A stretch of DNA of 64,000 nt, from the IMG/VR virus record IMGVR_UViG_3300047558_000092, one strand, 5' to 3'. This document shows positions 13,784 through 62,247 of this stretch, one piece after another. The notes beneath the pieces were generated by a model, which did not search any database, was not told where the DNA came from, and saw only the letters and a list, made by a program, of their open reading frames with translations. A program made the position numbers and the translations under genes. The stretch is from a virus. Lineage: Duplodnaviria > Heunggongvirae > Uroviricota > Caudoviricetes. Within the stretch, counting starts at the first letter, position 1; each line of letters starts with the position of its first letter.

Positions 13784-14755
13784 TTATTCCTTATTCCATA
13801 CGAACGCTGAACTGTCCCAATTACGATGATATTGATTACCCATACCGCTAAAGAAGTCGTTGAAAGTATAATCGTTAATTCCTTTGTAGAACCACTCAGA
13901 AATTGGATTATATTTTACATCGTACTCTTTAGCAAAGCCTAGATTCTTCAAGCATTCGTTTACACGAGATTGCACAAAGTTTTCTAACTGGTGAGCCGTA
14001 ATACCTTTGATATCACCCTTCTCAAATAACATGGCAATAATTTGGCACTCATGCTCGTAAATCTTCTTCGCCACTTCACGAACCTTAGCTTCAATCTCTG
14101 CTACGTACTCTGGTGTAGCATCCTTACCCATTTGAGCTAGTTTATATTTGAATGCCCATGCGCCACCTTGTGAATGCATATTCTCGTCACGTACTGAGAA
14201 GTTGATACCACGTACAATATTCATTAACTTATTCTTACCCTGAGATTGGTAATGCTTCAAGAAAGCAAATGAACTGTACAGAATAACACCTTCTACCATT
14301 GAGAAAGCAGCTAACGAAACTAAGTCGTCCTTATGCTCAATAATTTCACCAATATGTGCTACACGATTCTTCAATACTTCGTTATCCAAATAAGACATAT
14401 AGAACTCTGGAGTATCAATATGTAATAGTTGATTAATCTTATTATAGAACGGAGCATGTACGGCTAGTTCAAACATGGAGAATACAGAAGCCATACGGTG
14501 AAACTCTGCACTATCGAACATGTCTTTAAAACGACCACCCCAATATTCAGAACCTGCGTGGGTTTCGTAGATGCTGAATAATTTAAGGGTGGTAATTACT
14601 GCATGCTTTTCAGCTTCAGTAAAGTTTACTAATACGTCCTGCACATCCTTCTCGACTTTAATTTCATCAGGTAACCAGAATACTTTTAATTGTTGGTCTG
14701 CAAACTCAACAGGTTCTGGTCGTTCATTAATCGGTAGCAGGTGTTTTTCTAGCAT
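13784..14755 (-). CDS. nrdB: ribonucleotide reductase small subunit
   Basis: 323 aa ferritin-like di-iron protein (EGVILYSSFAFL, RDENMH motifs). Confidence 0.85.
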   Translation of the reverse strand: MLEKHLLPINERPEPVEFADQQLKVFWLPDEIKVEKDVQDVLVNFTEAEKHAVITTLKLFSIYETHAGSEYWGGRFKDMFDSAEFHRMASVFSMFELAVHAPFYNKINQLLHIDTPEFYMSYLDNEVLKNRVAHIGEIIEHKDDLVSLAAFSMVEGVILYSSFAFLKHYQSQGKNKLMNIVRGINFSVRDENMHSQGGAWAFKYKLAQMGKDATPEYVAEIEAKVREVAKKIYEHECQIIAMLFEKGDIKGITAHQLENFVQSRVNECLKNLGFAKEYDVKYNPISEWFYKGINDYTFNDFFSGMGNQYHRNWDSSAFVWNKE

Positions 14756-14756
14756 T

Positions 14757-15176
14757 TTATTCCTCTTCTTTTACTACATTGTAGCGGTCACGAGCCTCTA
14801 GTGAATCTTGAGCGTCTTGCGTTAGATAACGACTACGGTACAAGTCTTCTAAAATCTTCGAGCCACTGGCTTTATCGATAGCTTCTCTACTAGCGTAACC
14901 GCTATATAGCCAAGCTTCATCTAGTCTCTCTTCTCCAACCCACCGACTGCATACTACTACTTCATTTAAGCGATTACGATGCTGTAAACCGTCTTGGCGT
15001 AGCACAGGTTTGTCGATATCCATACCCAACGAATGCAAGAACTTATTAAAAGCTACTGTATCATTCTCAAAGTCAGATGAGTAATTTGGCATTACTTTTA
15101 CAATCTCTGATTCAGACACAATACATAAGGCTACAATGGCTGAAGGACGGGGTGGAAATGTTAATTTTTTATTCAT
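14757..15176 (-). CDS. hypothetical protein
   Basis: 139 aa ORF tightly coupled upstream of nrdB. Confidence 0.4.
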   Translation of the reverse strand: MNKKLTFPPRPSAIVALCIVSESEIVKVMPNYSSDFENDTVAFNKFLHSLGMDIDKPVLRQDGLQHRNRLNEVVVCSRWVGEERLDEAWLYSGYASREAIDKASGSKILEDLYRSRYLTQDAQDSLEARDRYNVVKEEE

Positions 15177-21266: not shown

Positions 21267-21920
21267 TTAGAATGGTGTATCTTCATCCTCAGCTGCTTCT
21301 TTAGCGACTTTAGCCTTAGCAGGTTTAGCAGCCTTAGCTGGCTTCTCTGCAGGGGTATCGTCACCATCGCCAGCGTCATCATCGAATTCAGAACCAGCTT
21401 GGTAATTACTCTCAGATTGAGTGTACTCAACTAAGTCTGTTACTAAAACGTTCTTTAAGAACAATGATGCACCACCAGTTTGACGTTCAAACTTATCTAC
21501 GCTAATAGAACCGTATGAACCGTTACCGATTAACTTGGAATGTGTAATATCGACTAGTGTTTTACCGACTTTTTCGAAGGCTTTTGGTTGGTAGAGTTCA
21601 GGTACTGGTTTGCCAGTTTTGCCAAGCTCGACACTCTTGCGTAATGTAAAGACCCATACATTCTTTCCATCACCTTCAGGAGGTGCTACCTTGTAGATAT
21701 TTTCGAATTCTGTACGCTTAACTTTCTTGAGGGAAATCATCGTATCTAATTCTTTTGCATATGCTTCTAGATCATCTGCATAATCTTCATCGGTAATAAC
21801 TACGCTTGCTTTCCATTCATCAGGCTTCTTAGGTGCGCCAGCTTTTTGTAGCGCCTTCTTTGCCTCGTGAACGGAAACGTAAACTAACATACCAGAAATT
21901 TTTTCTCTGTTAAAACTCAT
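21267..21920 (-). CDS. single-stranded DNA-binding protein, T7 gp2.5-like, with acidic C-terminal tail ending in Phe
   Basis: 217 aa; OB-fold-sized N-terminal region; C-terminus ...DDDAGDGDDTPAEKPAKAAKPAKAKVAKEAAEDEDTPF (acidic tail plus terminal F as in T7 gp2.5). Confidence 0.65.
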   Translation of the reverse strand: MSFNREKISGMLVYVSVHEAKKALQKAGAPKKPDEWKASVVITDEDYADDLEAYAKELDTMISLKKVKRTEFENIYKVAPPEGDGKNVWVFTLRKSVELGKTGKPVPELYQPKAFEKVGKTLVDITHSKLIGNGSYGSISVDKFERQTGGASLFLKNVLVTDLVEYTQSESNYQAGSEFDDDAGDGDDTPAEKPAKAAKPAKAKVAKEAAEDEDTPF

Positions 21921-24177: not shown

Positions 24178-25914
24178 TTATAACATAATATTAACGATGT
24201 TACGAATCTCTTCGATAGAAGTTTCTTTTACAAGCTTACCATCTTTAAAGACAGTTTGCAAGCAACCTTGCGCTTCTTGTTCTTTGGTTTGTTGGTCATA
24301 CAAAACAAACTTACCATCTTCAAACTCTACTCGCAATAAACCTTTGGCAGATTTCTTAGTACCGTTATCAGTAATAGGGTCTTTGAATAACTCAGAACCT
24401 TCACCGTTAACTTCAGCATAAGTAGCTTTCATAGCAAAACCAAATGAATCACGAGTGACATATTGGTAAGTATAAGAGCCGATACCGAAGACTACGTTAC
24501 TAGAAGCAAAACCTTTGGCTTTCAAACGTTTAAGAATCTGGTCAGCACGTTCTAAGGTAATTGAATCACCGTAGATTAAACCAACGTGTTCATCAAGCAT
24601 CTTGAAACCTTCAGCATTGATTGTACCACCGAATGTATCCCACAAGCATTGTACTGCACCTTTTTGTGCTGGAGTTAACTCAACAGGTTCAAAACTTTGT
24701 AGGTTACTTCCATCGACATAGTAGTATTGCTTGTCGTAACGGTTCCATTCAATCTCAACAACAGCCTTATAAACTTGACCTTGAAACTTGAAGTAATCGG
24801 TTACAACATATTCACCACACTCACCGTGGTCAGTTGTAGCTGCTACATTATTTTCAATCATATCTTGAGCATAGTCTTTTGCTTGTTCAATATCTGAAAA
24901 AGCAAAGGGCCACTTACTTAAATCTGTCACTTCGATACCACAAATGATTTCAACAGGGTCACCAGAATCGGGACGGAATACGACTTTGTTCAAACCAATA
25001 GCGTTAGGAGTACGAGCCATAATCTCAGGCTTTAACTCTGCAGCCATGTCGGTAATAACATGCCAGAAATCCCATGTGTCGCTAACAATACTGACAACAC
25101 CAGAAGGACAGACTTCAGTAATCAAACGGCGAAAGGTTTCAATCTCTGATTCTTTACCACCAGCACACATAACTGAGTGTTCAGTAGCAGGTACAGAACC
25201 ACCGATAAACGTGTTTAAACCACCGTAGAAGGCTTCCAAATAGTCAATGGCAGGGATAGTATCAGTACCCAAGAAAGAGACTAAGTGACCGCTGGCGCTG
25301 GCAGCATCGTTCAGACCGCTTAAACCACGGTAACTGAAGTCATGACCTTGCCACAATACGAAGTCTAATGGCGCACCAGTTTCCTTAGCATACTGAGTGA
25401 GAAGCTTGCGATATTCAAACGCAGTAGTTGCTGTAGTGATTGGCTTCCAAAGCTCAGTACTAATTGCAGTCTCAAGATAGTTAGTCAACCAGAAGAATTC
25501 TGGCAATGTATTCTTGATAGTCAATACTGGTACTTTGATATCGACCAATGAACCTTCTGGCAAAGCTTTGATTTCGATTGGCAAGTAACCTAAATCCCAC
25601 AAGGCAGCAATGTGTTCAGTACCGACAACACCTTCACCTAGGGACATATCCACACGGCGCTTGTACTCAGCAACTACTTGAGAACGAGACTTACAGAAAA
25701 AACCATAGTTGAAAGTGTCAATCAAGAAGGATTTGATAAAACCTTGCAAACCATACCAAAGAATTTTCTCTGGTTTCTTAGCGCCAGCACTAGGTGCAAG
25801 ACGATTAGAGCGAGGTGTGAAGTTGCTGTAAATCATAGTAGTACCTTTAGGGTACATATCTTTGTGGCCTACTTTGTAAAAATCACAAGCTGTCATTGGA
25901 TTAATAAAACTCAT
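24178..25914 (-). CDS. nicotinamide phosphoribosyltransferase family protein (NAMPT/NadV or NARP1 Namat-type)
   Basis: 578 aa; N-terminal MSFINPMTACDFYKVGHKDMYP matches the NAMPT family start; full-length PRTase type II size. Confidence 0.85.
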   Translation of the reverse strand: MSFINPMTACDFYKVGHKDMYPKGTTMIYSNFTPRSNRLAPSAGAKKPEKILWYGLQGFIKSFLIDTFNYGFFCKSRSQVVAEYKRRVDMSLGEGVVGTEHIAALWDLGYLPIEIKALPEGSLVDIKVPVLTIKNTLPEFFWLTNYLETAISTELWKPITTATTAFEYRKLLTQYAKETGAPLDFVLWQGHDFSYRGLSGLNDAASASGHLVSFLGTDTIPAIDYLEAFYGGLNTFIGGSVPATEHSVMCAGGKESEIETFRRLITEVCPSGVVSIVSDTWDFWHVITDMAAELKPEIMARTPNAIGLNKVVFRPDSGDPVEIICGIEVTDLSKWPFAFSDIEQAKDYAQDMIENNVAATTDHGECGEYVVTDYFKFQGQVYKAVVEIEWNRYDKQYYYVDGSNLQSFEPVELTPAQKGAVQCLWDTFGGTINAEGFKMLDEHVGLIYGDSITLERADQILKRLKAKGFASSNVVFGIGSYTYQYVTRDSFGFAMKATYAEVNGEGSELFKDPITDNGTKKSAKGLLRVEFEDGKFVLYDQQTKEQEAQGCLQTVFKDGKLVKETSIEEIRNIVNIML

Positions 25915-25925
25915 TTTAAACTCCT

Positions 25926-26726
25926 TTAAATGACTGTCACAGAATCTGCAACAGATTGGTTCATGTTGTTGTGTACGTAGATTGTATCATAGAGTTTCAA
26001 CAATTCGTCCGTACCTTTAGAAAAAATTCCATGCGTTACATAAAGATTCAACGATGTGATATTTGGTTGTGTCCGTTTTAGCATTTCAGCTAAAGACAAG
26101 AAAGTAGCACCACCATCACAGATATCGTCTACCACGCATACATCACCACTAATTGTATCATATGCTTCACCAAAATAAGTTACTTGACCGTCTTTACGGG
26201 TCTTTAGTAATGTGTGACAAAGTGTACCTAAGCCAACCTGATAGTGTGTCATGACCTTCTCAGCTGCACCTTTATCTGGTGCAATTAGTACGCTAAACTT
26301 AGGCAAGTACTTAGCGCACGATGCCTGTGACATATGTTGAACTTGTACGCCATAACCCATCAAAGCTTGATGTGTAACTTCACTGTGCATATCCTTGATG
26401 TAGATGTTATTGTAGTGAGGGAAAGCCTTCAACATATGTGCAAATACACGCAATGCAAAGCTTTCACCTTCATGGCACACACGGTCTTGACGACCATAAG
26501 GAAAGTATGGAATAAACAAATCAATGTTGTCACGTTGAACACCTTGTACAGCTAATGCATCTAACATGTTCAGTGCAATAAAGATTTCATCTGACGTAGG
26601 CATAGTCAGTACAATTCCTACCTTTTCGTGCTTTTCAATTTGTGGGATTTTTACACCCACTTCACCAGCTGGAAATTTCCAACTCTTAAACTCAACCTCA
26701 TGACCGTTTACTTTTAAATTAATCAT
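25926..26726 (-). CDS. ribose-phosphate pyrophosphokinase-like protein (Prs, or ADPR-PP synthetase of NARP1 type)
   Basis: 266 aa; PRPP-binding loop CVVDDICDGGATF; shorter than canonical Prs (~315 aa); adjacent to the NAMPT-like gene. Confidence 0.75.
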   Translation of the reverse strand: MINLKVNGHEVEFKSWKFPAGEVGVKIPQIEKHEKVGIVLTMPTSDEIFIALNMLDALAVQGVQRDNIDLFIPYFPYGRQDRVCHEGESFALRVFAHMLKAFPHYNNIYIKDMHSEVTHQALMGYGVQVQHMSQASCAKYLPKFSVLIAPDKGAAEKVMTHYQVGLGTLCHTLLKTRKDGQVTYFGEAYDTISGDVCVVDDICDGGATFLSLAEMLKRTQPNITSLNLYVTHGIFSKGTDELLKLYDTIYVHNNMNQSVADSVTVI

Positions 26727-27198
26727 CTGTAACTCCTTTGTGACGTTTCAAATACCTTGTTGCAGATTCTAACACAGAAACCTTATCCTGTAAGAACCCT
26801 AACGCTCTGTTGCATAAATTACACAATAGACCTCTGACCTTACCTGTCTCATGGTCGTGGTCTACAGCGAATGAAACTAATCGGTCATTCGCTACGCCTT
26901 CACCAGCAGGATTGATAGTACCACAAATTGCACAAGAGTTGCCTTGGCTTTCTAAAATATTTTCATATTCCATATATGCCATATTGTATTTAAACATTAG
27001 CCACCGTCTTTTGTAACCCAACCAAGTTGGATTTTCTTTCTTAGGTATGTTACGGTTTCTAGAGGTCTTTCTTGCAAGATTATCACAAGATTTGCATCTA
27101 TAACCGTACCCATCTTTCTCCCTATTGGATTTATAGAACGATTGTAACGATTTTTCTTCTTTACATACAGTACAAGTTTTCAATGGCACTGCCCCCAT
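26719..27198 (-). CDS. endonuclease VII-family (T4 gp49-like) resolvase/HNH nuclease
   Basis: 159 aa; CAICGT...LSFAVDHDHETGKVRGLLCNLCNRALG Endo VII zinc motif; N-terminal CxxC...CxxC. Confidence 0.75.
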   Translation of the reverse strand: MGAVPLKTCTVCKEEKSLQSFYKSNREKDGYGYRCKSCDNLARKTSRNRNIPKKENPTWLGYKRRWLMFKYNMAYMEYENILESQGNSCAICGTINPAGEGVANDRLVSFAVDHDHETGKVRGLLCNLCNRALGFLQDKVSVLESATRYLKRHKGVTDD

Positions 27199-29477
27199 GA
27201 GGAACCGGGTATATACTCGAATCCTAATTCCACTCTTAAGTTTAACTCTTTCACAGCGGTTTTAATCCCTTCTTCAATACATTGAACTGGCAAGGTTTTT
27301 AGACCTACATATGGCCCTTTAGAACCGTGACCAATTGCACTACAACCTTCATTAGCTTCTACAAACTCTTTAGCTTCGTCTTCTGTAGTAAAGCCTTTGA
27401 CTTGCATCAATGAAGGATGACAAGCCATTTGTTGTTCGTCATGCATGTGAATTAGCCACCACACCTTAGAATCTGCTTTGGTATCGCTAAACGGGTCACC
27501 TAAGATACCGCGCTCTTCCATAGCTTGAGCTAATCGTACAGCAGACCACTTAGCAGCAATAGCGCCGCCAGATTGGAATAGAACGTTAATAAGGCTGTGT
27601 TTACTGCGTGTTGATAGCAGACGACCATCTAGACCTTTAATGTGCTTCTTATCGCGTGATACCCATGCCTTTTCCAAGTCTTCTTTTAGCTCCTTCAATG
27701 CAGGTACAGCGTCCCAATAGTTGTTGAATAGTACCTTGGCCTCTTCCAAACTAATGCCTAGCATCTTAGCAAGCTTCTTAGGTTGAGCGCCATAAATAGC
27801 AGCATAACTAAATGACTTCGCTGAGTTACGGTCAATACCTAATTTACGTGCGTTGATACTGTGAATATCATTTGGCTTCTCTGCAATCAGTGAAATAGCT
27901 AATGCTTCACCGTCAGTGTACGGCAGTACATAGTGACCCATTACACGCGCTTCCAATGATGCGAAGTCGTAGCCTAGTTGCCACAGACCTTTACCAGCAC
28001 CAAATAGGTTACGCATTTGCTCACCGTATAACGAAGTTACACGAGGAACGTTACATACAATCTTGTGACGGTATCGACCAGTGTTAGCACCTAACGTATC
28101 AGCAGGTGTAGGAATACGACCATCTTCACGGACGTTAGCCAAGAAGCCTGTTACGGGGTCACCATCCTCGTCTAGTACACCACCAGCAATTGAATTACGG
28201 CGGTGACGGTACGTGTAGTAATGCACAACGTCTTTTACGAACTCTGCTTTTTCACCTAACTGAATAAGTGCAGGACAGATTTCTTTTTCAACACCTACTG
28301 TTAGCTTTGGTGTAGTTGGCAAATAGATTGGTTTACTACCGTCAATCTTACCTTCTAAGAACCGCTGTAGGTTATTCATACTGCAGCCGAGCATATCTAA
28401 ACGTAACTCACGGAATACGGATGTTTCGGTTTGTTGTACGTAGCGTTCAATGGCGACTAAGATTTCAGCATATGTGCGGATTGATTTATCAGTCTTCTTG
28501 ACAATATCACGTTCTTTAACTTCTGTTGGCTCCCAACCTAATGAAATCAAGTAACCCTTTACTACATCAATATCTTCAATGTCAGCATCTACGTGTGTCT
28601 TCAATGGCTCATCAGTAGTAATCGGAAATGTTTTCCCTTCGAAAACAATCGTTTCCTTATCTTCAGATAATACAGCACCAGTTTTCTCACAGAACTTTAG
28701 AAGGTGTGACGATACATCACCATTCTTTTTAAAGCGAATCTTCGGTAGCTCATAGAAACTGGCAGCTACCTTAGTCATGCGCTTCTTAGGTAACAATGGG
28801 TCTACCGTCTTAGCGATATCTGCCATCATCTTATTAAGCTCTACAAGGTTTTGCTCTGCTAATTGCACGTTAAAGTCAAAGCCGAACAACTCTTGACGTA
28901 GTGTTAAATCCGTAAGCTTAATCTCAACAGAGTATGCGCGGTCCCAAGGATAGTCACCCTTCTCTTCAAGCAACTCGTAATGTACAGTCTCGTTGACACT
29001 TGTATCTTGAATACAGTAATCCAACATTTCCTGTGAGAAACGGTCCCACTCTTCGAAGTGAGTTTTGTGGTTACCTAAACGCTTACCCCATGCGTCAAGA
29101 CTATGACCACCGAAACGGTCAGGACTGAGCAACTTAGACCACAGCAATGTATCTGTAATCTTGCAAGGTACACCAAAGACTGTAGATGGTTGGTCAGGAT
29201 AACCTACACGGTAATCCATTACACCGTACAGCTTCAATACTGGCAAGTCGAATGCAACAATGTTATGACCGATAATCTCGGTGCAGTCTCGCAGGATATG
29301 CTGCAAACGTTCTTTGGTAATCTCTTCTTTAACCAATGAAATAACGGCTTTAGTGTCCAAGTTACGGATAACTACACACCATACCTTGTAATCAGGTTTG
29401 AGTGCATATGGCATCACAGAGTAATCCAAACCGTTCTGTAAAAGGTTGGTACTCTCAATGTCTATAATAAAACGCAT
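27180..29477 (-). CDS. DNA polymerase, family A, with 3'-5' exonuclease domain
   Basis: 765 aa; N-terminal exonuclease region; motif A GYDFASLEARV, motif B RNSAKSFSYAAIYG, motif C HMHDEQQ. Confidence 0.9.
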   Translation of the reverse strand: MRFIIDIESTNLLQNGLDYSVMPYALKPDYKVWCVVIRNLDTKAVISLVKEEITKERLQHILRDCTEIIGHNIVAFDLPVLKLYGVMDYRVGYPDQPSTVFGVPCKITDTLLWSKLLSPDRFGGHSLDAWGKRLGNHKTHFEEWDRFSQEMLDYCIQDTSVNETVHYELLEEKGDYPWDRAYSVEIKLTDLTLRQELFGFDFNVQLAEQNLVELNKMMADIAKTVDPLLPKKRMTKVAASFYELPKIRFKKNGDVSSHLLKFCEKTGAVLSEDKETIVFEGKTFPITTDEPLKTHVDADIEDIDVVKGYLISLGWEPTEVKERDIVKKTDKSIRTYAEILVAIERYVQQTETSVFRELRLDMLGCSMNNLQRFLEGKIDGSKPIYLPTTPKLTVGVEKEICPALIQLGEKAEFVKDVVHYYTYRHRRNSIAGGVLDEDGDPVTGFLANVREDGRIPTPADTLGANTGRYRHKIVCNVPRVTSLYGEQMRNLFGAGKGLWQLGYDFASLEARVMGHYVLPYTDGEALAISLIAEKPNDIHSINARKLGIDRNSAKSFSYAAIYGAQPKKLAKMLGISLEEAKVLFNNYWDAVPALKELKEDLEKAWVSRDKKHIKGLDGRLLSTRSKHSLINVLFQSGGAIAAKWSAVRLAQAMEERGILGDPFSDTKADSKVWWLIHMHDEQQMACHPSLMQVKGFTTEDEAKEFVEANEGCSAIGHGSKGPYVGLKTLPVQCIEEGIKTAVKELNLRVELGFEYIPGSSWGQCH

Positions 29478-29538: not shown

Positions 29539-31269
29539 TTACTTGATATCGCTAACATTATCTTTCATCCACTGCTTAAGATTGTGCAATGTATGTGTAG
29601 TGTTATCGTAGTAGATAGAACCAGCTGGACCTGTCAAACCGCATACGCGATTCTTAGTTACACTGATTTCTGTGCTATTACGTGTTAGCTCGTCTTCAGC
29701 CATTTTATCTCGTTTCAACAAGATGTTGGCAGATGCAGATTTAATAATGGTACTTGAACCCATAATGTTTTGTTCGCTATCGGCTCCATTTTGACCCGCA
29801 GGTGTTTTACGCATGTGGTTAATGAATACGAACGTAACGCTATGACTTTTCATAAAGCCCTTAGCCCACTTCATGAACTCGGCTTGCTCTTCATTACCTA
29901 AACCATCTAAGATATCTTGTAATGGGTCTAAGACAATTACCTTAGCACCACAACCTACAACTAATTCTTCGATAGTGTCTTTAATGTCATCCACTGAACC
30001 ATCACGGTTATCTAGCAGATAGAAACGCGAGTTACCACTAGAGTCTAGCATCAAATCTTGAGCTTGTGCTTTAACCTTATCAGAGCGTAAGAATGCTAAC
30101 TTCTCTTCCTGTGACGGAATAAGAGCTAACTTCTTTTCGATATGACGAGATAAGAGTGCTTCACCATATTGACCTGCATCAAGTTCCATAGAAACAATGC
30201 CAATCATGTGAGGTGAATTGAAAATCCAGTAGTAAATCATTTCATTCACTAATGTGGTTTTACCGATACCAGTATCTGCAGCAATATTAATGATATGACC
30301 TAATGGCATACCACCAATAAATAAATCATTCAATTCACCCATAAAAGGTGGGAATGGAATTTTTGCTACTGACGACTGATTCAAGATACGGTCATACAAA
30401 CCACTAGAGGGTAACACACCAACTGGTACATAAGCCTTGGCATTGTAGAAGTCACTAATGAATGCTTTCTCTTCGCCCTTCTGCAAGTACTCATTGGCAT
30501 CCTTATAACGCATACTCATAATCTTGACCTTACCCTTAGGTAAAACCTTGACAATAGTTTCTACTGCATCTTGACCAGCTTTATCACTGTCATACGCTAC
30601 AATAATCTGTTCAAATGAATCAAAGAACTTATATTGTGCTGCAATTTGCTTGTGTGAATTAGCTCCCGTAGTCGGACTAACTACAGCAGTTTCATAGTCA
30701 CCCTTAGTCTTGTTGTAATCTGCGAACATTTGATATGCAGATAATGCATCAAGTTCACCTTCGGTAATGATTACGTAGCGACCACCACGATTGAACTTAA
30801 ATTGCATGAACAATTCGCAGTCAGCGCCAGTACGACCCTTAGAATAAAAATTCTTAGGGACTTCACGAATCTTATAGCCAACTAGCTCACCAGCTTGAGT
30901 ACATGTATATGCTTGCTCAATAACTTCACCAGTTTCCTCTGAGTATGAGTAACGCACATTAAACATCGTGTTAAATTCGTCACGAATACCTCTAAAGCCT
31001 TTACCCTTAGTAGAAGTCTCAGACTTAAATTCTTGTTGCTCTTCTTTTGTCAGAGCAGGTTTAGTGCTAGGTTTAACTTCCATATCTTCAACTTCCTTTA
31101 CTTTTTTAACTTTACCTTTGCGCTTCTTGGAGTCCAGATGGTCCTTGTAGTCTTCACTTAAAGATTTATCTTTACAGACCCAACAGTAATGGCTACCATC
31201 ATTGTAGATAGCCTTTCCATCCGAACTACCGCATTTATCGCAATTGACATGCTTAACGAATAATGCCAA
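29539..31269 (-). CDS. bifunctional primase-helicase (T7 gp4-like)
   Basis: 576 aa; N-terminal zinc ribbon CDKCGSSDG...CWVCKD, TOPRIM region, DnaB-family helicase Walker A (IAADTGIGKTT). Confidence 0.85.
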   Translation of the reverse strand: MALFVKHVNCDKCGSSDGKAIYNDGSHYCWVCKDKSLSEDYKDHLDSKKRKGKVKKVKEVEDMEVKPSTKPALTKEEQQEFKSETSTKGKGFRGIRDEFNTMFNVRYSYSEETGEVIEQAYTCTQAGELVGYKIREVPKNFYSKGRTGADCELFMQFKFNRGGRYVIITEGELDALSAYQMFADYNKTKGDYETAVVSPTTGANSHKQIAAQYKFFDSFEQIIVAYDSDKAGQDAVETIVKVLPKGKVKIMSMRYKDANEYLQKGEEKAFISDFYNAKAYVPVGVLPSSGLYDRILNQSSVAKIPFPPFMGELNDLFIGGMPLGHIINIAADTGIGKTTLVNEMIYYWIFNSPHMIGIVSMELDAGQYGEALLSRHIEKKLALIPSQEEKLAFLRSDKVKAQAQDLMLDSSGNSRFYLLDNRDGSVDDIKDTIEELVVGCGAKVIVLDPLQDILDGLGNEEQAEFMKWAKGFMKSHSVTFVFINHMRKTPAGQNGADSEQNIMGSSTIIKSASANILLKRDKMAEDELTRNSTEISVTKNRVCGLTGPAGSIYYDNTTHTLHNLKQWMKDNVSDIK

Positions 31270-54816: not shown

Positions 54817-54953
54817 AAATCCACGCACCCCTTTCGGAATTAAAAAGCCGTGAGGGGTTTTGTTTTGCCTAAAAATTCTATTCTACCAAAAAGCCGCGAT
54901 TAAACCAAAAACCCACGTGCCATTTGGTGAAATAAAATCAGTCTAATGCTCAA

Positions 54954-55031
54954 ATTTTGCGCCGAAATTTTGCATCGTGAAACGCGATTTTGCATTGTGA
55001 AATTAACCGTTTTACATCGTGAAAAATAGCC
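54954..55031. repeat. AT-rich iteron set: about 3.5 copies of a ~22 bp unit ATTTTGCATCGTGAAA
   Basis: attttgcgccga / aattttgcatcgtgaaacgcg / attttgcattgtgaaattaacc / gttttacatcgtgaaaaatagcc. Confidence 0.6.
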
Positions 55032-55066
55032 GTAACTTGTTGATTTTAAACGATTTTATGGCCACA

Positions 55067-55416
55067 GGTGACCAGCGCCTGAACCAGCAGCGAAGCGGTA
55101 AAGGTAACCAGCAGAGGAAACCAGCGAAGGTGACCAGCGCCTGAACCAGCAGCGAAGCGGTAAAGGTAACCAGCAGAGGAAACCAGCGAAGGTGACCAGC
55201 GCCTGAACCAGTACAGGTAACCAGCAGAGGAAATCAGCGAAGGTGACCAGCAGAGGAAACCAGCGAAGGTGACCAGCGCCTGAACCAGTACAGGTAACCA
55301 GCAGAGGAAATCAGCGAAGGTGACCAGCAGAGGAAACCAGCGAAGGTGACCAGCGAAGGTGACCAGCGCCTGAACCAGTACAGGTAACCAGCGAAGGTGA
55401 CCAGCAGAGGAAACCA
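55067..55416. repeat. complex tandem repeat array built from GGTGACCAGC / GGTAACCAGC modules (two perfect 62 bp units, then 51/26/13 bp variants)
   Basis: 55067..55128 and 55129..55190 are identical; GGTGACCAGC occurs 9 times; the minus-strand ORF 55046..55426 is a translation artefact of the repeats. Confidence 0.7.
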
Positions 55417-55890
55417 AAGAACACAAACAAACTAAAATCTAGTACTTTTATTTGCAGAATACCGATAGATTTTATTTATTGCACCGATAGAAAATATTTA
55501 TGATGAAAGTGGTTTTATCTGGTTTTATTTGCCATAATAGAGGCACTCAAACAAATCAACCACAGGAAAAATAAACCATGTTTATGCTCAAAGTATCAGC
55601 CGCAATGATTATCGGGGCAGGTGTAATGCTCACAGGGGCAGCGCAGGGGAGCGCCTTAATTATGGCCGCACCATTTATCATTTTAATGACAATCATTTGC
55701 GTGAAAGGTTAAGCATGAAAACCAAGATTTTAAACGCCGTTATTTTCGCCGCATCATTCGCCGTGATTCTCGCATGTATGCTAGAATACTTTGATTGTCT
55801 CACACGTTAAATTGTCAGTTATAGCCCCTGATTCAAGCGGGAGCTATAGCGGGTAATTTCACCCGATATTGTCTCACAGGAATAAACACC

Positions 55891-59537: not shown

Positions 59538-59921
59538 TTACTTATTCTTTGGTTTAGGACCGCGCTTTGCAGGTTCCTTAACTTCTGGAGTTTCGTGAGT
59601 CTCAACTTCGGTAGTCTCTTCTGTAACTACTTCAGTTGTCTCTTCAGTGTTTTGTTCCGTATTCTGTACAACTTCTTCGGTTTGTTCAGTTTCAGTAACA
59701 CTTTCACCAACCTGCTCAGTTTCAGTTTCAGTAGTCTCTTCCGCTACTTCTTCTACTGTCTCACTAGCCTTAACAAGACCGCAAGTAAGCATAGTGCCAT
59801 AAGCCGTAGGAAAGTTTTCATTGGTATCAAAATCGAAGACATAACCTTCTTTGAAAGCTGCTTCAATGTCTTGGCAGAAGTCGTAGAGGCCGTAAGATTC
59901 GATTCGTTTAACATTTGTCAT
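59538..59921 (-). CDS. highly acidic Thr/Glu-rich protein (DNA-mimic candidate)
   Basis: 127 aa; ~50 aa folded N-terminus, then a long ETTETETEQ... low-complexity acidic tract and a basic KRGPKPKNK end. Confidence 0.45.
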   Translation of the reverse strand: MTNVKRIESYGLYDFCQDIEAAFKEGYVFDFDTNENFPTAYGTMLTCGLVKASETVEEVAEETTETETEQVGESVTETEQTEEVVQNTEQNTEETTEVVTEETTEVETHETPEVKEPAKRGPKPKNK

Positions 59922-60037
59922 GTGTACTCCTTTTAGGGTTAATAAAAGTTAATTATAACATAACCTCAGTTCAGAGTCAAGGCTTAGGAAATATTTTGAG
60001 CAAAGTATTGACAAATCGTAAAACGTGTGATAACCTT

Positions 60038-60466
60038 ATGGAGTCTTATAAAGGAGTTCGTGTGCAATCAACTAACATTGTAAAATTAGAAAAGAAAACT
60101 AGTCCAAAGAACACATGGATTAGGTCTTCGCACGAGCTACTGAAACGTAAGGACTTAACATCTAATGCTAAATTAGTATATTCACATATGTTGGATAAAT
60201 ATGTATTCTTTAGTAGTCAAAATAAAGAGTACTATGAAAATCTAGTGGATATTGGTGAAGCCTTAGGTGGAATGGCTAAACAAACTGTTAGCGACTGCAT
60301 CAAGAAATTAAAAGAAGCTAACCTAATTATTGTACGTACAAAAAATGTCTACTCAAGCACTAAATCAATTGTGTCGAATAACTACATTGTGAAAGATGTG
60401 TACGGTATTTATGAACCACAGAAGCCTAAGCGAAAGCACTATGACGAAGATGATACGCCATTCTGA
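60038..60466 (+). CDS. winged-helix DNA-binding protein with SSB-like acidic C-terminal tail (candidate origin-binding/initiator protein)
   Basis: start set at MESYKGVRV (track ORF starts at 59915); HTH GGMAKQTVSDCIKKLKEANLIIV; C-terminus KPKRKHYDEDDTPF parallels the SSB tail EDEDTPF; iterons immediately downstream. Confidence 0.45.
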   Translation: MESYKGVRVQSTNIVKLEKKTSPKNTWIRSSHELLKRKDLTSNAKLVYSHMLDKYVFFSSQNKEYYENLVDIGEALGGMAKQTVSDCIKKLKEANLIIVRTKNVYSSTKSIVSNNYIVKDVYGIYEPQKPKRKHYDEDDTPF

Positions 60467-60473
60467 TAGTCCG

Positions 60474-60540
60474 AAAATCTTACCTATGATAGTCCGAAAA
60501 TCTTACCTATGATAGTCCGAAAATTAGCCCCTAATAAGAC
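60474..60540. repeat. three tandem 22 bp iterons (GATAGTCCGAAAATCTTACCTAT)
   Basis: tgatagtccgaaaatcttacctatgatagtccgaaaatcttacctatgatagtccgaaaattagcccc, directly after the stop of 60038..60466. Confidence 0.7.
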
Positions 60541-60756
60541 TGACCAACAATACTGATATAACTATACTGATATTACTATGTATAGTATAACGTACATTAG
60601 GCTTTCAGCCTGTTTGCTGGTGAGCTTTTAGGTTTGTTGTATAAAAACAACAGTACAACCCTACATACCTAACTTACACCTATCTAGCACATAGAACTAA
60701 TAGATTGTGCTAAACGATTAAGTTATGCTTACTAAATTAATAACTATAAGGATATT

Positions 60757-61236
60757 ATGTTAAAAGAACTATTGCTATATTGTGCATTAGAGGGTGAGTT
60801 CTACATACTCAAGGCTGACAAACCTTACCGTAGGCTTTTCCCTGATGCTGACGGATACCTAATATTCTACAAAAAAGGTAAGAAGTACAAGTTGAAAGCT
60901 AATAGGGTAGCAATAGAGTTAGGTAATGACTTGATTGTGCCAAAAGATAAAGTAGTGCTGCATCGTAATCTGGACTACAATGATTACAGACTGCAAAACT
61001 TACGTTTAGTCACTAGAAAAACTTTTAATACTATCAAAGAGGCTCAACGTAATTTAGGTGGTGCTTTACGTATCGTACCACATCATCAAGATATGTTCAG
61101 TTATACCCTATGCTGGAGAGAAGATGGTAAGGATAGAGTGTTAGTCGTACAAGATATCGTAGTGGTACGTAGGTTATATAATAAACTACAATTAAAGTAC
61201 GCTAAAACACTCAGTAAGTACTGCGTGTTTGATTGA
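60757..61236 (+). CDS. hypothetical protein
   Basis: 159 aa ORF. Confidence 0.4.
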   Translation: MLKELLLYCALEGEFYILKADKPYRRLFPDADGYLIFYKKGKKYKLKANRVAIELGNDLIVPKDKVVLHRNLDYNDYRLQNLRLVTRKTFNTIKEAQRNLGGALRIVPHHQDMFSYTLCWREDGKDRVLVVQDIVVVRRLYNKLQLKYAKTLSKYCVFD

Positions 61237-61541: not shown

Positions 61542-61736
61542 ATGAAGTGCATTGTATGCAATCAATATTTTAAGCAAAGCGTATTTAACCAAGGGTATGA
61601 ATGCGATGATTGCTCGAATGTATTATTGAATGAAGTAGATTCAGAGTCCGAAGTAGATTTCGAGATTCTAAAGAACCCTAGTGGAAAGACTGCAGCGCAG
61701 ATTCACTATGATTGGGACGATTCCCACGGGTTTTAA
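61542..61736 (+). CDS. small zinc-finger protein
   Basis: 64 aa; CIVCNQ...CDDCSN. Confidence 0.35.
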   Translation: MKCIVCNQYFKQSVFNQGYECDDCSNVLLNEVDSESEVDFEILKNPSGKTAAQIHYDWDDSHGF

Positions 61737-61842
61737 TTAATAGCGGAGTGGAGAAGTGGTCATCTCGTTACCCTCATAAGGTAAAGAACGCTTGTTCGAA
61801 TCAAGCCTCACGCTTCCATTACAAAGTCATCGAAGGATAGAC

Positions 61843-62247
61843 ATGAAAGATAAGAAAACAGAGCAGCTAGGTATGAATCCTAGCACAGCAAGTCACAGGT
61901 TAGTAAAAGATATCCTTTGGGCTTTAATTTTACAAACTGGTCAAGATAAATGTTGTAAATGTGGTCATCAAATGACTAGAGAAACATTTTCAATTGAACA
62001 TAAGATACCTTGGTTAGACAGTGACAATCCTAAAGAATTATATTTTGATTTAAATAATATAAGTTTTAGTCATTTATCATGTAACGTAGCTGATTCAAGG
62101 AAACCAGCTTCAAAATGTGGTACAATAAACAAATATGACAAACATGGTTGCAGGTGCGAAGCTTGTAAAAATGTTAAAAGAGAAGTTCAAGCTAGATACT
62201 ACACACCAGAACGTAGAAAATCTATATACGCTAGAACAGGTCATTAG
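61843..62247 (+). CDS. HNH endonuclease
   Basis: start set at MKDKKTEQ; CCKCGHQM...FSIEHKIPW...H-LSCN HNH motif and C-terminal CGT...CRCEAC zinc cluster; sits just before the tRNA cluster. Confidence 0.55.
   Translation: MKDKKTEQLGMNPSTASHRLVKDILWALILQTGQDKCCKCGHQMTRETFSIEHKIPWLDSDNPKELYFDLNNISFSHLSCNVADSRKPASKCGTINKYDKHGCRCEACKNVKREVQARYYTPERRKSIYARTGH

What the first reader, a model, noticed from the sequence alone, without database searches (positions are those of the whole stretch)
59915..60540. Winged-helix protein carrying an SSB-like acidic C-terminal tail (…DEDDTPF), followed by three 22 bp iterons: candidate origin-binding / replisome-recruiting module
The SSB at 21267..21920 ends in ...EDEDTPF, the acidic-tail-plus-terminal-Phe arrangement that T7 gp2.5 uses to dock onto its DNA polymerase. 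The small protein at 60038..60466 is a basic winged-helix DNA binder (GGMAKQTVSDCIKKLKEANLIIV) but ends with almost the same tail (HYDEDDTPF). Immediately after its stop are three perfect or near-perfect 22 bp direct repeats (GATAGTCCGAAAATCTTACCTAT). An initiator-like DNA binder sitting next to its iterons and sharing the polymerase-docking tail of the SSB suggests an origin-binding protein that recruits the T7-like replisome. I do not recall this arrangement being described.
Basis: partly seen in the sequence, partly recalled or inferred. Interest (0 to 1): 0.75.

Follow-up and report, generated by a model that had tools for sequence, protein, structure and literature searches.

The report
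Small DNA-binder with SSB docking tail
A small early phage protein binds three repeats placed right after its own gene and ends in the short acidic "...PF" peptide that single-strand-binding proteins use to recruit replication enzymes; a large uncharacterised protein family shares this design, which looks like a minimal origin marker, but origin activity is unproven.

Summary
The gene (most likely 60062..60466, 134 aa) encodes a winged-helix protein whose disordered C-terminus ends in DEDDTPF. The only other ORF in the window with this tip is 21267..21920 on the minus strand (EDEDTPF), and I confirmed that one as a T7 gp2.5-fold SSB. The repeats are 23 bp, not 22 bp: two perfect copies plus a third at 74% identity, starting in the stop codon.

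New evidence:
- All non-redundant relatives examined carry 3-5 such repeats at the same place.
- The repeat core switches together with the recognition helix, so the protein almost certainly binds the repeats.
- The winged helix belongs to the replication-initiator type (DUF6945, HTH_36, DnaD_N; PHROG initiator families).
- The tip is the bacterial SSB-Ct type (acidic-x-PF), not the T7 type (-DF).
- 81 of 149 distant family representatives also end in PF.

Best reading (about 0.45): a minimal initiator that marks a site next to an easily melted block and displays SSB-type docking peptides.

Unproven or against: origin activity and polymerase docking are untested. A cultured relative (Limnohabitans phage DC31) lacks the gene. 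A second repeat-rich region, with DnaA-box clusters in relatives, is a rival origin. A role as a transcription factor remains possible.

The parts
60008..60036 (+). Sigma-70-type extended -10 promoter of the winged-helix gene: TTGACA, 17 nt, TGa-TAACCT
   Evidence: Read from the sequence. The same TTGACA-N16/17-TGn-TAnnnT is present in L001, L003, L004 and phage DC31. The simple scanner missed it because its -10 hexamer is weak.
59952..59980 (-). Divergent strong sigma-70-like promoter (TTGACT-17-TATAAT with TG) for the minus-strand operon (AT-hook-like protein, PhoH, ClpP-like)
   Evidence: 11 of 12 matches.
60062..60466 (+). Gene for a 134-aa initiator-type winged-helix protein. An alternative in-frame ATG lies at 60038. 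Shine-Dalgarno AAAGGAG at 60050-60056.
60443..60463 (+). Codons of the C-terminal tip DEDDTPF (SSB-Ct-type docking peptide) at the end of a disordered linker
   Evidence: sequence; pLDDT below 50 for residues 128-141. P and F are at least 90% conserved while the linker varies; 25 of 29 close and 81 of 149 distant relatives end in PF.
60464..60532 (+). Three tandem 23-bp binding sites (iterons): TGATAGTCCGAAAATCTTACCTA twice, then TGATAGTCCGAAAATTAGCCCCT
   Evidence: Arrays lie at the same position in all related loci, and the repeat core co-varies with the recognition helix.
60533..60588 (.). Invariant block CTAATAAGACTGAC plus three ACTGA motifs spaced 13-14 bp apart, then the AT-rich palindrome TACTATGTATAGTA. 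This is the candidate unwinding element; a weak sigma-70 -35/-10 reading is an alternative.
   Evidence: Alignment of 10 loci. TRF finds a 14-nt repeat at 60546-60579. 60549-60588 is the third least stable 40-mer duplex of the window, z = 3.4. Weak promoter-like hit CTGACC-17-TATACT.
60634..60653 (.). Conserved palindrome TTGTTGTATAAAAACAACAG (TGTTG-N8-CAACA), function unknown
   Evidence: Invariant core in 10 loci. Unique in the window.
21267..21920 (-). gp2.5-fold SSB ending in the same tip (EDEDTPF)
27180..29477 (-). Family A (T7-like) DNA polymerase. It is a possible but untested receptor of the tip.
29539..31269 (-). gp4-like primase-helicase, without an acidic-Phe tail. It is a possible but untested receptor of the tip.

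Best explanation
The gene at 60062..60466 is expressed early from a host-type promoter. It makes a small sequence-specific duplex-DNA binder whose winged helix is of the kind found at the N-terminus of phage and plasmid replication initiators (lambda O-like, DnaD-like, RepA_N-like).

Several copies of the protein occupy the three 23-bp sites that begin at the gene's own stop codon. These sites directly abut an invariant, easily melted block containing three ACTGA motifs and an AT-rich palindrome.

Where full-length initiators carry a helicase-loader-recruiting domain, this protein has only a 15-20-residue disordered linker ending in acidic-x-Pro-Phe-COOH. That is the same tip carried by the phage's own gp2.5-fold SSB and by bacterial SSB (DDDIPF).

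The bound array would therefore display, at one fixed place on duplex DNA, a cluster of the docking peptides that SSB-coated single-stranded DNA normally displays. This would concentrate SSB-tail-binding replication proteins there. Candidates are the phage polymerase or primase-helicase, the SSB's own DNA cleft, or host clients such as PriA, primase or Pol III chi. The effect would be to nucleate initiation.

Shown here: the fold and family of the protein; the tail and its conservation; the repeats; the protein-repeat specificity coupling; the identity of the SSB.
Inferred: that the site is an origin, that the tip is a docking peptide in this context, and which partner it binds.
For: 1. The winged helix is of the initiator type. 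DUF6945, E = 2e-12. phrog_8102, 270 and 428 'replication initiation protein' and the DnaD-like loader families match the N-terminal part of their profiles. All 50 distant relatives hit phrog_8102 (best E = 3.5e-24); 48 of 50 hit DUF6945, 27 of 50 HTH_36, 7 of 50 DnaD_N. Among otherwise generic fold hits are the staphylococcal RepA N-terminal domain bound to iteron DNA (5KBJ, 4PQL) and the DnaD N-terminal domain (2V79).

2. The protein binds the adjacent repeats.
- 3-5 repeats with a 22-23-bp period start at or just after the stop codon in every related locus, including a relative only 34% identical.
- The helix ..KQTVSD.. always goes with TAGTCCGAAA. ..RRTV[AG]D.. always goes with TATGGCGAAA..GCACA. 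..KNTVRD.. goes with TAGTACG. ..NRTTVHR.. goes with ATACGCAAAAYGC.
- P0020 (KQ) and P0021 (RR) are 85% identical outside the helix yet have different repeats. P0021 is only about 61% identical to the other RR proteins. This implies at least two independent co-switches.

3. The tail is under selection and matches the SSB tail.
- PF is at least 90% conserved while the linker varies in length and sequence.
- 81 of 149 distant representatives end in PF and 106 of 149 end in an aromatic residue after acidic residues.
- In the gp2.5-fold SSB family 115 of 120 end in PF, and DDDIPF is the commonest tip.
- On the same contig the winged-helix and SSB tips read TPF/TPF, SPF/SPF, SPF/SPF and EPF/SPF.

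4. The anatomy resembles an origin.
- The repeat period of about two helical turns matches plasmid iterons.
- The repeats are followed at once by an invariant block and by the third least stable 40-mer of the 64 kb.
- There are no copies of the site in the gene's own promoter region.

5. The architecture recurs in an element that has no replisome genes. A 4.6-kb integrative element inserted in moaC carries an integrase, a 212-aa family member ending DDESGMPF, GTGCA repeats plus a 70-bp AT-rich tract right after its stop codon, and an Mrr nuclease.

6. Precedents exist for linear motifs on replication proteins.
- T7 gp2.5 and gp4 tails dock on gp5 (PMC12339929).
- The RK2 initiator TrfA recruits the beta-clamp through a clamp-binding motif (PMC4980987).
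Against: - No functional data exist. PHROG and RefSeq names such as 'replication initiation protein' are annotation, not tests.
- Fold search cannot separate this protein from MarR/ArsR-type regulators.
- The cultured relative Limnohabitans phage DC31 has the same synteny and the same promoter but no such gene. It has about 330 bp of AT-rich non-coding DNA there instead. The module is therefore dispensable in this phage group.
- Three close relatives lack the tail but keep the repeats.
- Homologues in KLEP7 (which has the PF tail) and in Vequintavirinae lack repeats right after the gene.
- A second repeat-rich non-coding region lies at 54820-55580. Its counterparts in relatives hold 3-13 perfect DnaA boxes. 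This is a rival origin.
- The block after the repeats can also be read as a weak sigma-70 promoter.
- On polymerase docking specifically: only two of the four residues of the T7 front basic patch align with basic residues, and there is no homologue of the thioredoxin-binding insert.
Confidence: 0.45

Rival explanations
1. The protein is a transcription regulator. Bound to the three sites, it activates, represses or roadblocks transcription into the downstream operon (HNH_3-like gene, Zn-ribbon gene, tRNAs, terminase, portal). It would act either at a promoter formed by the invariant CTGACC-17-TATACT block just downstream of the sites, or by blocking read-through from its own promoter. The acidic tail would contact RNA polymerase or have another role.
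For: - Weak promoter-like hits overlap or follow the repeats (60463, 60486, 60540).
- The sites would lie roughly at -40 to -110 of that putative promoter.
- The gene heads the block that leads to the structural genes.
- Depositors annotated homologues as 'transcriptional regulator' in KLEP7 and as MarR/GbsR in JGI records.
- The fold is generic winged helix, with many MarR/PadR hits.
- DC31 does without the gene, as expected for a dispensable regulator.
Against: - Sequence-family hits go to initiator and DnaD-like families rather than regulator families.
- The model shows no MarR-type dimerisation helices.
- There is no operator in its own or the divergent promoter.
- A transcription role does not explain why the tip matches the SSB tip in this phage and across a family of at least 261 clusters.
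- The promoter-like matches are only 9 of 12, and the ACTGA triplet is more strictly conserved than a promoter would require.
Confidence: 0.25
2. The protein binds the repeats, but the true primary origin lies elsewhere. The main candidate is the repeat-rich non-coding region at 54820-55580, whose counterparts in relatives carry DnaA-box clusters. The winged-helix module would then be an accessory or secondary site, for example a second origin or a switch between replication modes.
For: - 54820-55580 holds four TTTTGCATCGTGAAA-like direct repeats, about 25 copies of a 13-nt ACCAGC unit, and an AT-rich flank.
- The homologous gap in L001 has 3 perfect TTATCCACA boxes, and in L003 it has 8 perfect boxes plus several close variants.
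- The main divergence of gene orientation and the minimum of cumulative GC skew lie at about 35.9 kb, not at 60 kb.
- DC31 lacks the gene.
Against: - The window phage itself has no perfect DnaA box anywhere in 64 kb. That region is therefore much less conserved than the winged-helix, iteron and ACTGA module, which is invariant in layout across all loci.
- GC skew here simply follows the direction of transcription.
- Phages often have several origins, so the two readings are not exclusive.
Confidence: 0.15
3. The tail is not a recruiting peptide. One option is an intramolecular DNA mimic that folds back on the basic winged helix to tune DNA binding, as SSB and gp2.5 tails do on their own DNA clefts. 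The other is a soluble decoy that competes with host SSB for its client proteins as a form of host takeover.
For: - From established knowledge, the acidic tails of gp2.5 and of E. coli SSB compete with ssDNA for the protein's own binding surface.
- Tail-less variants still keep the repeats, so the tail is separable from DNA binding.
- The tip equals the bacterial SSB-Ct consensus type.
Against: - An electrostatic DNA mimic would not need a strictly conserved Pro-Phe-COOH. That pair is the hallmark of pocket docking.
- A decoy would not need a sequence-specific DNA-binding domain with co-evolving sites.
- The tip tracks that of the phage SSB in 3 of 4 paired genomes.
Confidence: 0.1

Closest known systems
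Iteron-binding replication initiators: plasmid Rep proteins (pPS10 RepA, R6K pi, RK2 TrfA), staphylococcal RepA_N (pSK41/pTZ2162; PDB 4PQL, 5KBJ), lambda O, SPP1 G38P and DnaD-like phage 'replisome organisers'
   Same: - Winged-helix DNA-binding domain with sequence-level similarity to the N-terminal domains of these families and fold hits to RepA_N and the DnaD N-terminal domain.
- Tandem direct repeats with a period of about two helical turns, next to the gene and followed by an AT-rich, easily melted block.
- Cognate specificity.
   Different: - Only 134 aa. The second domain that dimerises or recruits a helicase or loader (lambda O C-terminus, DnaD DDBH2, Rep WH1, RepA C-terminal domain) is missing. 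A disordered linker with an SSB-type tip takes its place.
- No origin activity has been shown.
Acidic C-terminal tails of T7 gp2.5 and gp4, which dock on T7 DNA polymerase
   Same: - A disordered acidic tail ending in a C-terminal Phe.
- The tail is shared by more than one protein of a phage that has a T7-like polymerase, a gp4-like primase-helicase and a gp2.5-fold SSB (PMC12339929).
   Different: - T7 tails end in -DF (gp2.5 ...EADEDGDF; gp4 ...SNDTDF). This one ends in -PF.
- Here the second carrier is a duplex-DNA binder, not the helicase; the primase-helicase ends ...NVSDIK.
- Only part of the T7 front basic patch is retained in this polymerase.
Bacterial SSB C-terminal tip (SSB-Ct, DDDIPF), the hub for PriA, DnaG, Pol III chi, RecQ, ExoI and others
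   Same: Same motif class: acidic residues, one variable residue, then Pro-Phe-COOH at the end of a disordered linker. DDDIPF itself is the commonest tip in the phage SSB family. PMC5872125 gives DDDIPF as the conserved SSB-Ct.
   Different: - The tip is attached to a sequence-specific dsDNA-binding winged helix rather than to an OB-fold ssDNA binder.
- I found no report of this combination.
The RK2 initiator TrfA, which recruits the beta-clamp through a clamp-binding motif
   Same: The concept is the same: an iteron-bound initiator carries a short linear motif that brings a replisome component to the origin (PMC4980987).
   Different: A different motif (clamp-binding QL..LF type versus SSB-Ct type), a different partner, and a much larger multi-domain initiator.
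MarR/ArsR/PadR-type winged-helix transcription regulators
   Same: Generic winged-helix fold and similar size. Some depositors name homologues this way.
   Different: - No MarR dimerisation helices in the model.
- No operator in its own promoter.
- Pfam regulator families score below their thresholds, whereas DUF6945 passes its threshold.

Membership tests
Iteron-type replication initiators (Rep / lambda O / DnaD-like organiser) | Winged-helix DNA-binding domain homologous to initiator N-terminal domains | tested here: met
   phrog_8102 E = 1e-10, plus phrog_270, 428, 7882 and 186. 50 of 50 distant relatives hit phrog_8102; HTH_36 27 of 50; DnaD_N 7 of 50.
Iteron-type replication initiators (Rep / lambda O / DnaD-like organiser) | Cognate tandem direct repeats in or next to the gene, phased at about 2 helical turns | tested here: met
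   23-bp period, 3 copies. Arrays are present in all related loci, and helix and repeat co-vary.
Iteron-type replication initiators (Rep / lambda O / DnaD-like organiser) | Adjacent AT-rich DNA unwinding element | tested here: inconclusive
   60549-60588 is the third least stable 40-mer of the window (z = 3.4), but the tract is short, and at 100-bp scale it is unremarkable (z = 1.8).
Iteron-type replication initiators (Rep / lambda O / DnaD-like organiser) | A second domain that oligomerises and/or recruits a helicase or helicase loader | tested here: not met
   The protein ends about 20 residues after the wing. Residues 128-141 are disordered. PHROG matches cover only the first ~100-130 positions of profiles 308-455 positions long.
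Iteron-type replication initiators (Rep / lambda O / DnaD-like organiser) | The site supports initiation of replication | not testable with these tools
   Needs marker-frequency or nascent-strand mapping, or an ori-plasmid assay.
SSB-Ct-type docking tails | Disordered acidic segment ending in Pro-Phe-COOH | tested here: met
   DEDDTPF; pLDDT below 50; PF conserved in 25 of 29 close and 81 of 149 distant relatives.
SSB-Ct-type docking tails | Carried by an OB-fold ssDNA-binding protein | tested here: not met
   The carrier is a winged-helix protein. The OB-fold carrier in this phage is the separate gene 21267..21920.
SSB-Ct-type docking tails | Phe-dependent binding to a pocket on partner proteins | not testable with these tools
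   No complex prediction or binding assay is available here.
T7-type acidic tails (gp2.5 / gp4) | Tail ends in Asp-Phe and is also present on the primase-helicase | tested here: not met
   T7 tails are ...EDGDF and ...NDTDF. Here the tail is ...TPF, and the primase-helicase ends ...NVSDIK.
MarR-type transcription regulators | N- and C-terminal dimerisation helices flanking the winged helix, and a palindromic operator at its own or a divergent promoter | tested here: not met
   The model has H32-36, H42-60, H69-75, H81-93 and a two-strand wing only. There is no copy of the site in 59922-60061. MarR_2 scores 15.7 bits against a cutoff of 27.
gp2.5-like SSB (for 21267..21920) | gp2.5 OB fold with a disordered acidic tail | tested here: met
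   Foldseek top hits are 1JE5 (E = 1.5e-6), 4KLK and 5ODL. Residues 182-217 are disordered.

The most novel reading that the evidence does not exclude
A widespread, so far undescribed class of minimal replication initiators. Each consists of an origin-recognising winged helix plus a C-terminal SSB-tip peptide. Arrayed on iterons, they would make a stretch of duplex DNA look like SSB-coated single-stranded DNA to the replisome or to the host SSB interactome (PriA, primase, Pol III chi, or a T7-like polymerase). That would bypass DnaA-type melting and loader proteins, and would give phages with T7-like replisomes but no phage RNA polymerase a way to choose an origin. The same device would serve tiny integrative elements that encode no replisome at all.
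Probability: 0.3. Interest if true: 0.85.

Novelty: new variant of a known kind. Interest (0 to 1): 0.62.

Why it matters
For most lytic phages with T7-like replisomes but no phage RNA polymerase, it is not known how the origin is chosen.

This locus gives a concrete, testable candidate: a 134-aa protein, its three mapped sites, and a two-residue motif (PF) whose deletion should separate DNA binding from recruitment.

The architecture is not a one-off. Of 149 representatives of a family with at least 261 clusters (Pfam calls it only DUF6945), 81 end in PF. The family spans uncultured freshwater phages, a cultured Pseudaeromonas phage and a 4.6-kb integrative element.

If the tip really docks SSB clients, it would extend the SSB-Ct interaction code from ssDNA-bound hubs to sequence-specific duplex-DNA binders. 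It would also give a name and function to a large DUF.

If instead the protein is a regulator, the shared tip still points to an unrecognised link between SSB partners and gene control.

Tried and rejected
- Close cultured relatives of the locus by DNA: none. By protein, only KLEP7 at 34% identity. No family member was found on PLSDB plasmids, where a sole-Rep context would have been near-proof.
- Searches of genome contigs gave nothing usable.
- A third protein with the tail: the Zn-ribbon ORF 61542..61736 ends DWDDSHGF, but this ending is not conserved in L004 and L092 and is not of the PF type. Rejected.
- The conserved palindrome TTGTATAAAAACAAC as a repeated phage-specific (late) promoter: it is unique in the window. 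Rejected.
- GC skew as an origin marker: it follows gene orientation and is uninformative.
- DnaA boxes in the window: none beyond chance, although relatives have clusters elsewhere.
- Rfam: nothing in 54.0-62.5 kb except tRNAs.
- Tail co-variation between the winged-helix protein and the SSB: only four paired genomes could be recovered, and 3 of 4 agree at position -3. This is suggestive only, because the genomes are related.
- Conservation of the T7 polymerase front basic patch: partial (KK aligned to R590/R591, with K587/K589 falling in a deletion). Inconclusive.
- Fold search of the winged helix: all hits have E of about 1e-2, so it is generic and not discriminating.
- Literature: no paper mentions DUF6945, and none describes an SSB-Ct-like tip on a duplex-DNA binder or initiator. 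The phiPMW paper says nothing about its 'replication initiation protein'.
Full report
**1. What is in the sequence**

An ORF ending at 60466 encodes a protein that ends ...KRKHYDEDDTPF.
- It has a Shine-Dalgarno AAAGGAG five bases upstream.
- Most homologues begin at that position.
- A conserved extended -10 promoter (TTGACA 60008-60013, 17 nt, TGa-TAACCT) would start the transcript near 60043. This promoter is also present in L001, L003, L004 and phage DC31.

The gene is therefore an early gene transcribed by host RNA polymerase. It lies back to back with a strong divergent promoter at 59980..59952.

Tandem Repeats Finder reports a 23-bp unit, 2.7 copies, 100% matches, at 60464-60524. In register, two copies are identical and the third (60510-60532) is 74% identical. 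The array starts inside the TGA stop codon. The 14-nt core occurs nowhere else in the 64 kb beyond chance-level hits with 2-3 mismatches.

The 'SSB' at 21267..21920 is on the minus strand and ends ...EDEDTPF. Among all ORFs of at least 40 aa in the six frames, only these two end in this way.

**2. The two proteins**

The small protein passes Pfam DUF6945 (E = 2e-12). It is sub-threshold for MarR and Crp HTH models. In PHROGs it matches only the N-terminal ~100 positions of 'replication initiation protein' families 8102, 270 and 428 and of DnaD-like helicase-loader families.

AlphaFold2 with 30 homologues gives a confident winged helix (H42-60, H69-75, H81-93, two-strand wing). Residues 1-28 and 128-141 are disordered. 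Foldseek against the PDB returns only weak, generic winged-helix hits. These include the staphylococcal RepA N-terminal domain bound to iteron DNA (5KBJ, 4PQL) and the DnaD N-terminal domain (2V79), alongside many MarR/PadR regulators. Fold alone does not decide between the readings.

The putative SSB has no Pfam hit. Its model (pLDDT 76.5, tail disordered) matches T7 gp2.5 (1JE5, E = 1.5e-6), DUF2815 (4KLK) and the Enc34 SSB. The rest of the replication module is T7-like: a family A polymerase and a gp4-like primase-helicase. The primase-helicase ends ...NVSDIK and has no acidic-Phe tail.

**3. The repeats are the protein's binding sites**

I found 29 close homologues and recovered their loci from metagenomic and viral contigs. 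In every locus, 3-5 repeats with a 22-23-bp period start at or within about 17 nt of the stop codon.

The repeat core changes together with the recognition helix:

| Recognition helix | Repeat core | Loci |
|---|---|---|
| ..G(G)M/L-x-KQTVSD.. | TAGTCCGAAA | window, L001, L003, L005, L007, L092, L093, L103, L104 |
| ..RRTV[AG]D.., with Lys to Arg in the wing | TATGGCGAAA..GCACA | L004, L008, L091, L106 |
| ..KNTVRD.. | TAGTACG | L090 |
| ..NRTTVHR.. (a relative only 34% identical) | ATACGCAAAAYGC | L108 |

Outside the helix, P0020 (KQ type) is 85% identical to P0021 (RR type). P0021 is only about 61% identical to the other RR proteins. The switch therefore happened, or was exchanged, at least twice. 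I take protein-repeat recognition as close to established (about 0.9).

**4. The tail**

In the close family the linker varies in length and sequence. The last residues are [DE][DE]-x-P-F in 25 of 29 proteins. One further protein reads ...TPFW. Three proteins lack the linker and tail altogether but keep the repeats.

A profile search of 1.84 billion representatives found 261 family members, mostly 100-190 aa. Of the 149 listed, 81 end in PF and 106 end in an aromatic residue preceded by acidic residues. The cultured Pseudaeromonas phage KLEP7 gp58, annotated 'transcriptional regulator', ends ...DFEDDNDPPF.

In the gp2.5-fold SSB family 115 of 120 end in PF. The commonest tip is DDDIPF, which is the conserved bacterial SSB-Ct hexapeptide (PMC5872125). 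T7's own tails, read from NC_001604, are ...EADEDGDF (gp2.5) and ...SNDTDF (gp4). The motif here is therefore of the bacterial SSB-Ct type, not the T7 type.

In the four genomes where both proteins could be paired, the winged-helix and SSB tips are TPF/TPF, SPF/SPF, SPF/SPF and EPF/SPF. This is suggestive, but the genomes are related.

**5. Family placement**

All 50 sampled distant relatives hit phrog_8102 'replication initiation protein' (best E = 3.5e-24). 40 of 50 hit phrog_428 and the DnaD-like loader family phrog_186. 48 of 50 hit DUF6945, 27 of 50 HTH_36, and 7 of 50 DnaD_N.

RefSeq names the homologues in phiPMW and in Vequintavirinae 'replication initiation protein'. These names are automatic: the phiPMW paper does not mention the protein.

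At the level of domain ancestry the protein is an initiator-type DNA-binding domain. It lacks the second domain that defines full initiators.

**6. The neighbourhood**

An alignment of ten intergenic regions shows these elements after the iterons:
- An invariant block, CTAAnnAGACTGAC, with three ACTGA motifs 13-14 bp apart.
- An AT-rich palindrome.
- A variable hairpin.
- An invariant palindrome, TGTTGYRTAAAWACAACA, which is unique in the window.

The 40-mer 60549-60588 is the third least stable duplex segment of the 64 kb (z = 3.4). Several of the least stable segments of the window cluster between 60.1 and 62.1 kb.

Iterons followed directly by short AT-rich repeats is the layout of iteron-plasmid origins. 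However, the same block also gives a weak sigma-70 match, CTGACC-17-TATACT, so a promoter reading cannot be excluded.

**7. Evidence from other contexts**

For the initiator reading: a 4.6-kb element is integrated in moaC, and its host contig shows a duplicated moaC fragment. The element carries only an integrase, a 212-aa family member ending ...DDESGMPF, an Mrr-type nuclease and small HTH genes. Right after the family member's stop codon come several GTGCA repeats and a 70-bp tract that is almost pure A/T. This element has no replisome genes. If the tip recruits anything there, the partner must be a host protein.

Against indispensability:
- Limnohabitans phage DC31 is a cultured relative (SSB 68% identical, ending ...DDDEIPF). 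It has the same gene order and the same promoter but no winged-helix gene. About 330 bp of very AT-rich non-coding DNA with ATAGGTTATAACAT repeats sits there instead. That layout, a promoter running into an AT-rich tract, resembles the T7 primary origin (my knowledge of T7). It suggests the locus is a replication or regulatory hub and that the winged-helix/iteron unit is an exchangeable module.
- KLEP7 gp58 and GAP31_179 have no repeats directly downstream of the gene. phiPMW has three 21-bp repeats upstream of its gene.

**8. A rival origin**

The non-coding region 54820-55580 contains four TTTTGCATCGTGAAA-like repeats, about 25 copies of a 13-nt ACCAGC unit, and an AT-rich flank. The homologous gap in L001 has three perfect DnaA boxes. 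In L003 it has eight perfect boxes plus several close variants. The window phage has none. That region is a serious alternative or additional origin. It is also far less conserved than the winged-helix module.

**9. Mechanism and verdict**

Best reading (0.45): this is a minimal initiator. It marks a site by cooperative occupation of the 23-bp repeats next to a meltable block. Through several copies of an SSB-Ct-type tip, it concentrates proteins that normally recognise SSB tails.

Precedents for each half exist. T7 gp2.5 and gp4 tails dock on the polymerase front basic patch (PMC12339929). The RK2 initiator TrfA recruits the beta-clamp through a linear motif (PMC4980987). I found no description of the combination.

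I put it at about 0.2. Only two of the four basic-patch residues align with basic residues, and the thioredoxin-binding insert has no homologue here.

Rivals:
- Transcription regulator or roadblock for the downstream operon (0.25).
- Accessory site, with the main origin elsewhere (0.15).
- Tail acting as an intramolecular DNA mimic or as a decoy for host SSB clients (0.1).

Novelty: a new variant of a known kind, namely an iteron initiator domain fused to an SSB-type docking tip. It generalises to a large DUF family. Interest is 0.62: the finding is real, conserved, not described in the literature I searched, and directly testable, but its function is still inferred.

Noticed in passing
window 54820-55580; L001 3808-4710; L003 3572-4329: A roughly 0.8-kb non-coding region with three kinds of repeats: four TTTTGCATCGTGAAA-like direct repeats (about 54950-55025), about 25 copies of a 13-nt (A/G)GGT(A/G)ACCAGC(A/G) unit (55066-55416, GC 0.47), and an AT-rich flank. 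In relatives the same gap holds clusters of perfect DnaA boxes (3 in L001; 8 in L003 plus several close variants) and repeats of the (A/G)TGCCAGC type. The window has no perfect DnaA box. This could be an origin or a DnaA sink.
   Followed up: partly
L101 (Limnohabitans phage DC31, PQ492658.1) 14420-15068: This cultured relative has identical synteny and the same TTGACA promoter but no winged-helix gene. About 330 bp of extremely AT-rich non-coding DNA with three ATAGGTTATAACAT-like repeats occupies the site.
   Followed up: partly
window 59538-59921 (-): The divergent neighbour has a conserved ~55-aa N-terminal domain, a Thr/Glu-rich acidic linker of variable length, and a conserved C-terminal KRGPKPKNK (PRGRKPK in L004; KRGRKPK in DC31). 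That C-terminus resembles an AT-hook. The protein has no Pfam or PHROG hit. It might bind the AT-rich DNA next door.
   Followed up: partly
window 60757-61236 (+): A 159-aa HNH_3-like protein (the I-HmuI-type nicking-endonuclease domain; Pfam E = 1.4e-5). It is syntenic and of constant length in all related loci, including DC31. It is therefore a core gene next to the putative origin rather than a mobile homing endonuclease.
   Followed up: partly
window 21267-21920 (-) and 120 homologues: A large family with no Pfam annotation (529 hits). It has the T7 gp2.5 fold, but its tails end in the bacterial SSB-Ct motif (115 of 120 end in PF; DDDIPF is commonest) rather than the T7 -DF ending.
   Followed up: partly
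L095 6437-11015 (JGI Ga0453205_0000040); L096: A 4.6-kb integrative element inserted in moaC. It carries an integrase, a 212-aa member of the winged-helix family with a PF tail, GTGCA repeats plus a 70-bp A/T tract right after that gene, an Mrr-type nuclease and a small HTH gene. It has no replisome genes.
   Followed up: partly
window 61542-61736 (+): A 64-aa CxxC...CxxC zinc-ribbon protein ending DWDDSHGF. The acidic-Phe ending is not conserved in L004 and L092 (...DTGDSI), so it is not part of the PF-tail set.
   Followed up: yes
window 60634-60653: A palindrome, TTGTTGTATAAAAACAACAG (TGTTG-N8-CAACA). Its core is invariant in ten related loci and it is unique in the window. It lies about 100 bp upstream of the HNH_3-like gene. 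Its function is unknown.
   Followed up: partly
window 61743-61814 (+): Rfam finds a tRNA (50.8 bits) that ARAGORN did not report. It overlaps the TTG-start extension of ORF 61792..62247, whose true start is probably further downstream.
   Followed up: no
L090 (Logan ERR2843944_158579), contig end: A 22,967-bp contig ends inside the third iteron, 53 bp after the stop codon. This is most likely an assembly break at a short tandem repeat. A physical genome end was not excluded.
   Followed up: no
window 24178-26726 (-): An NAD+ salvage pair: nicotinamide phosphoribosyltransferase and ribose-phosphate pyrophosphokinase. Together with an RNA ligase, a DNA ligase, PhoH, a ClpP-like protease and at least 12 tRNAs, this places the phage near Pakpunavirus / Felix O1-like freshwater myophages. 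The host is probably in the Comamonadaceae.
   Followed up: no
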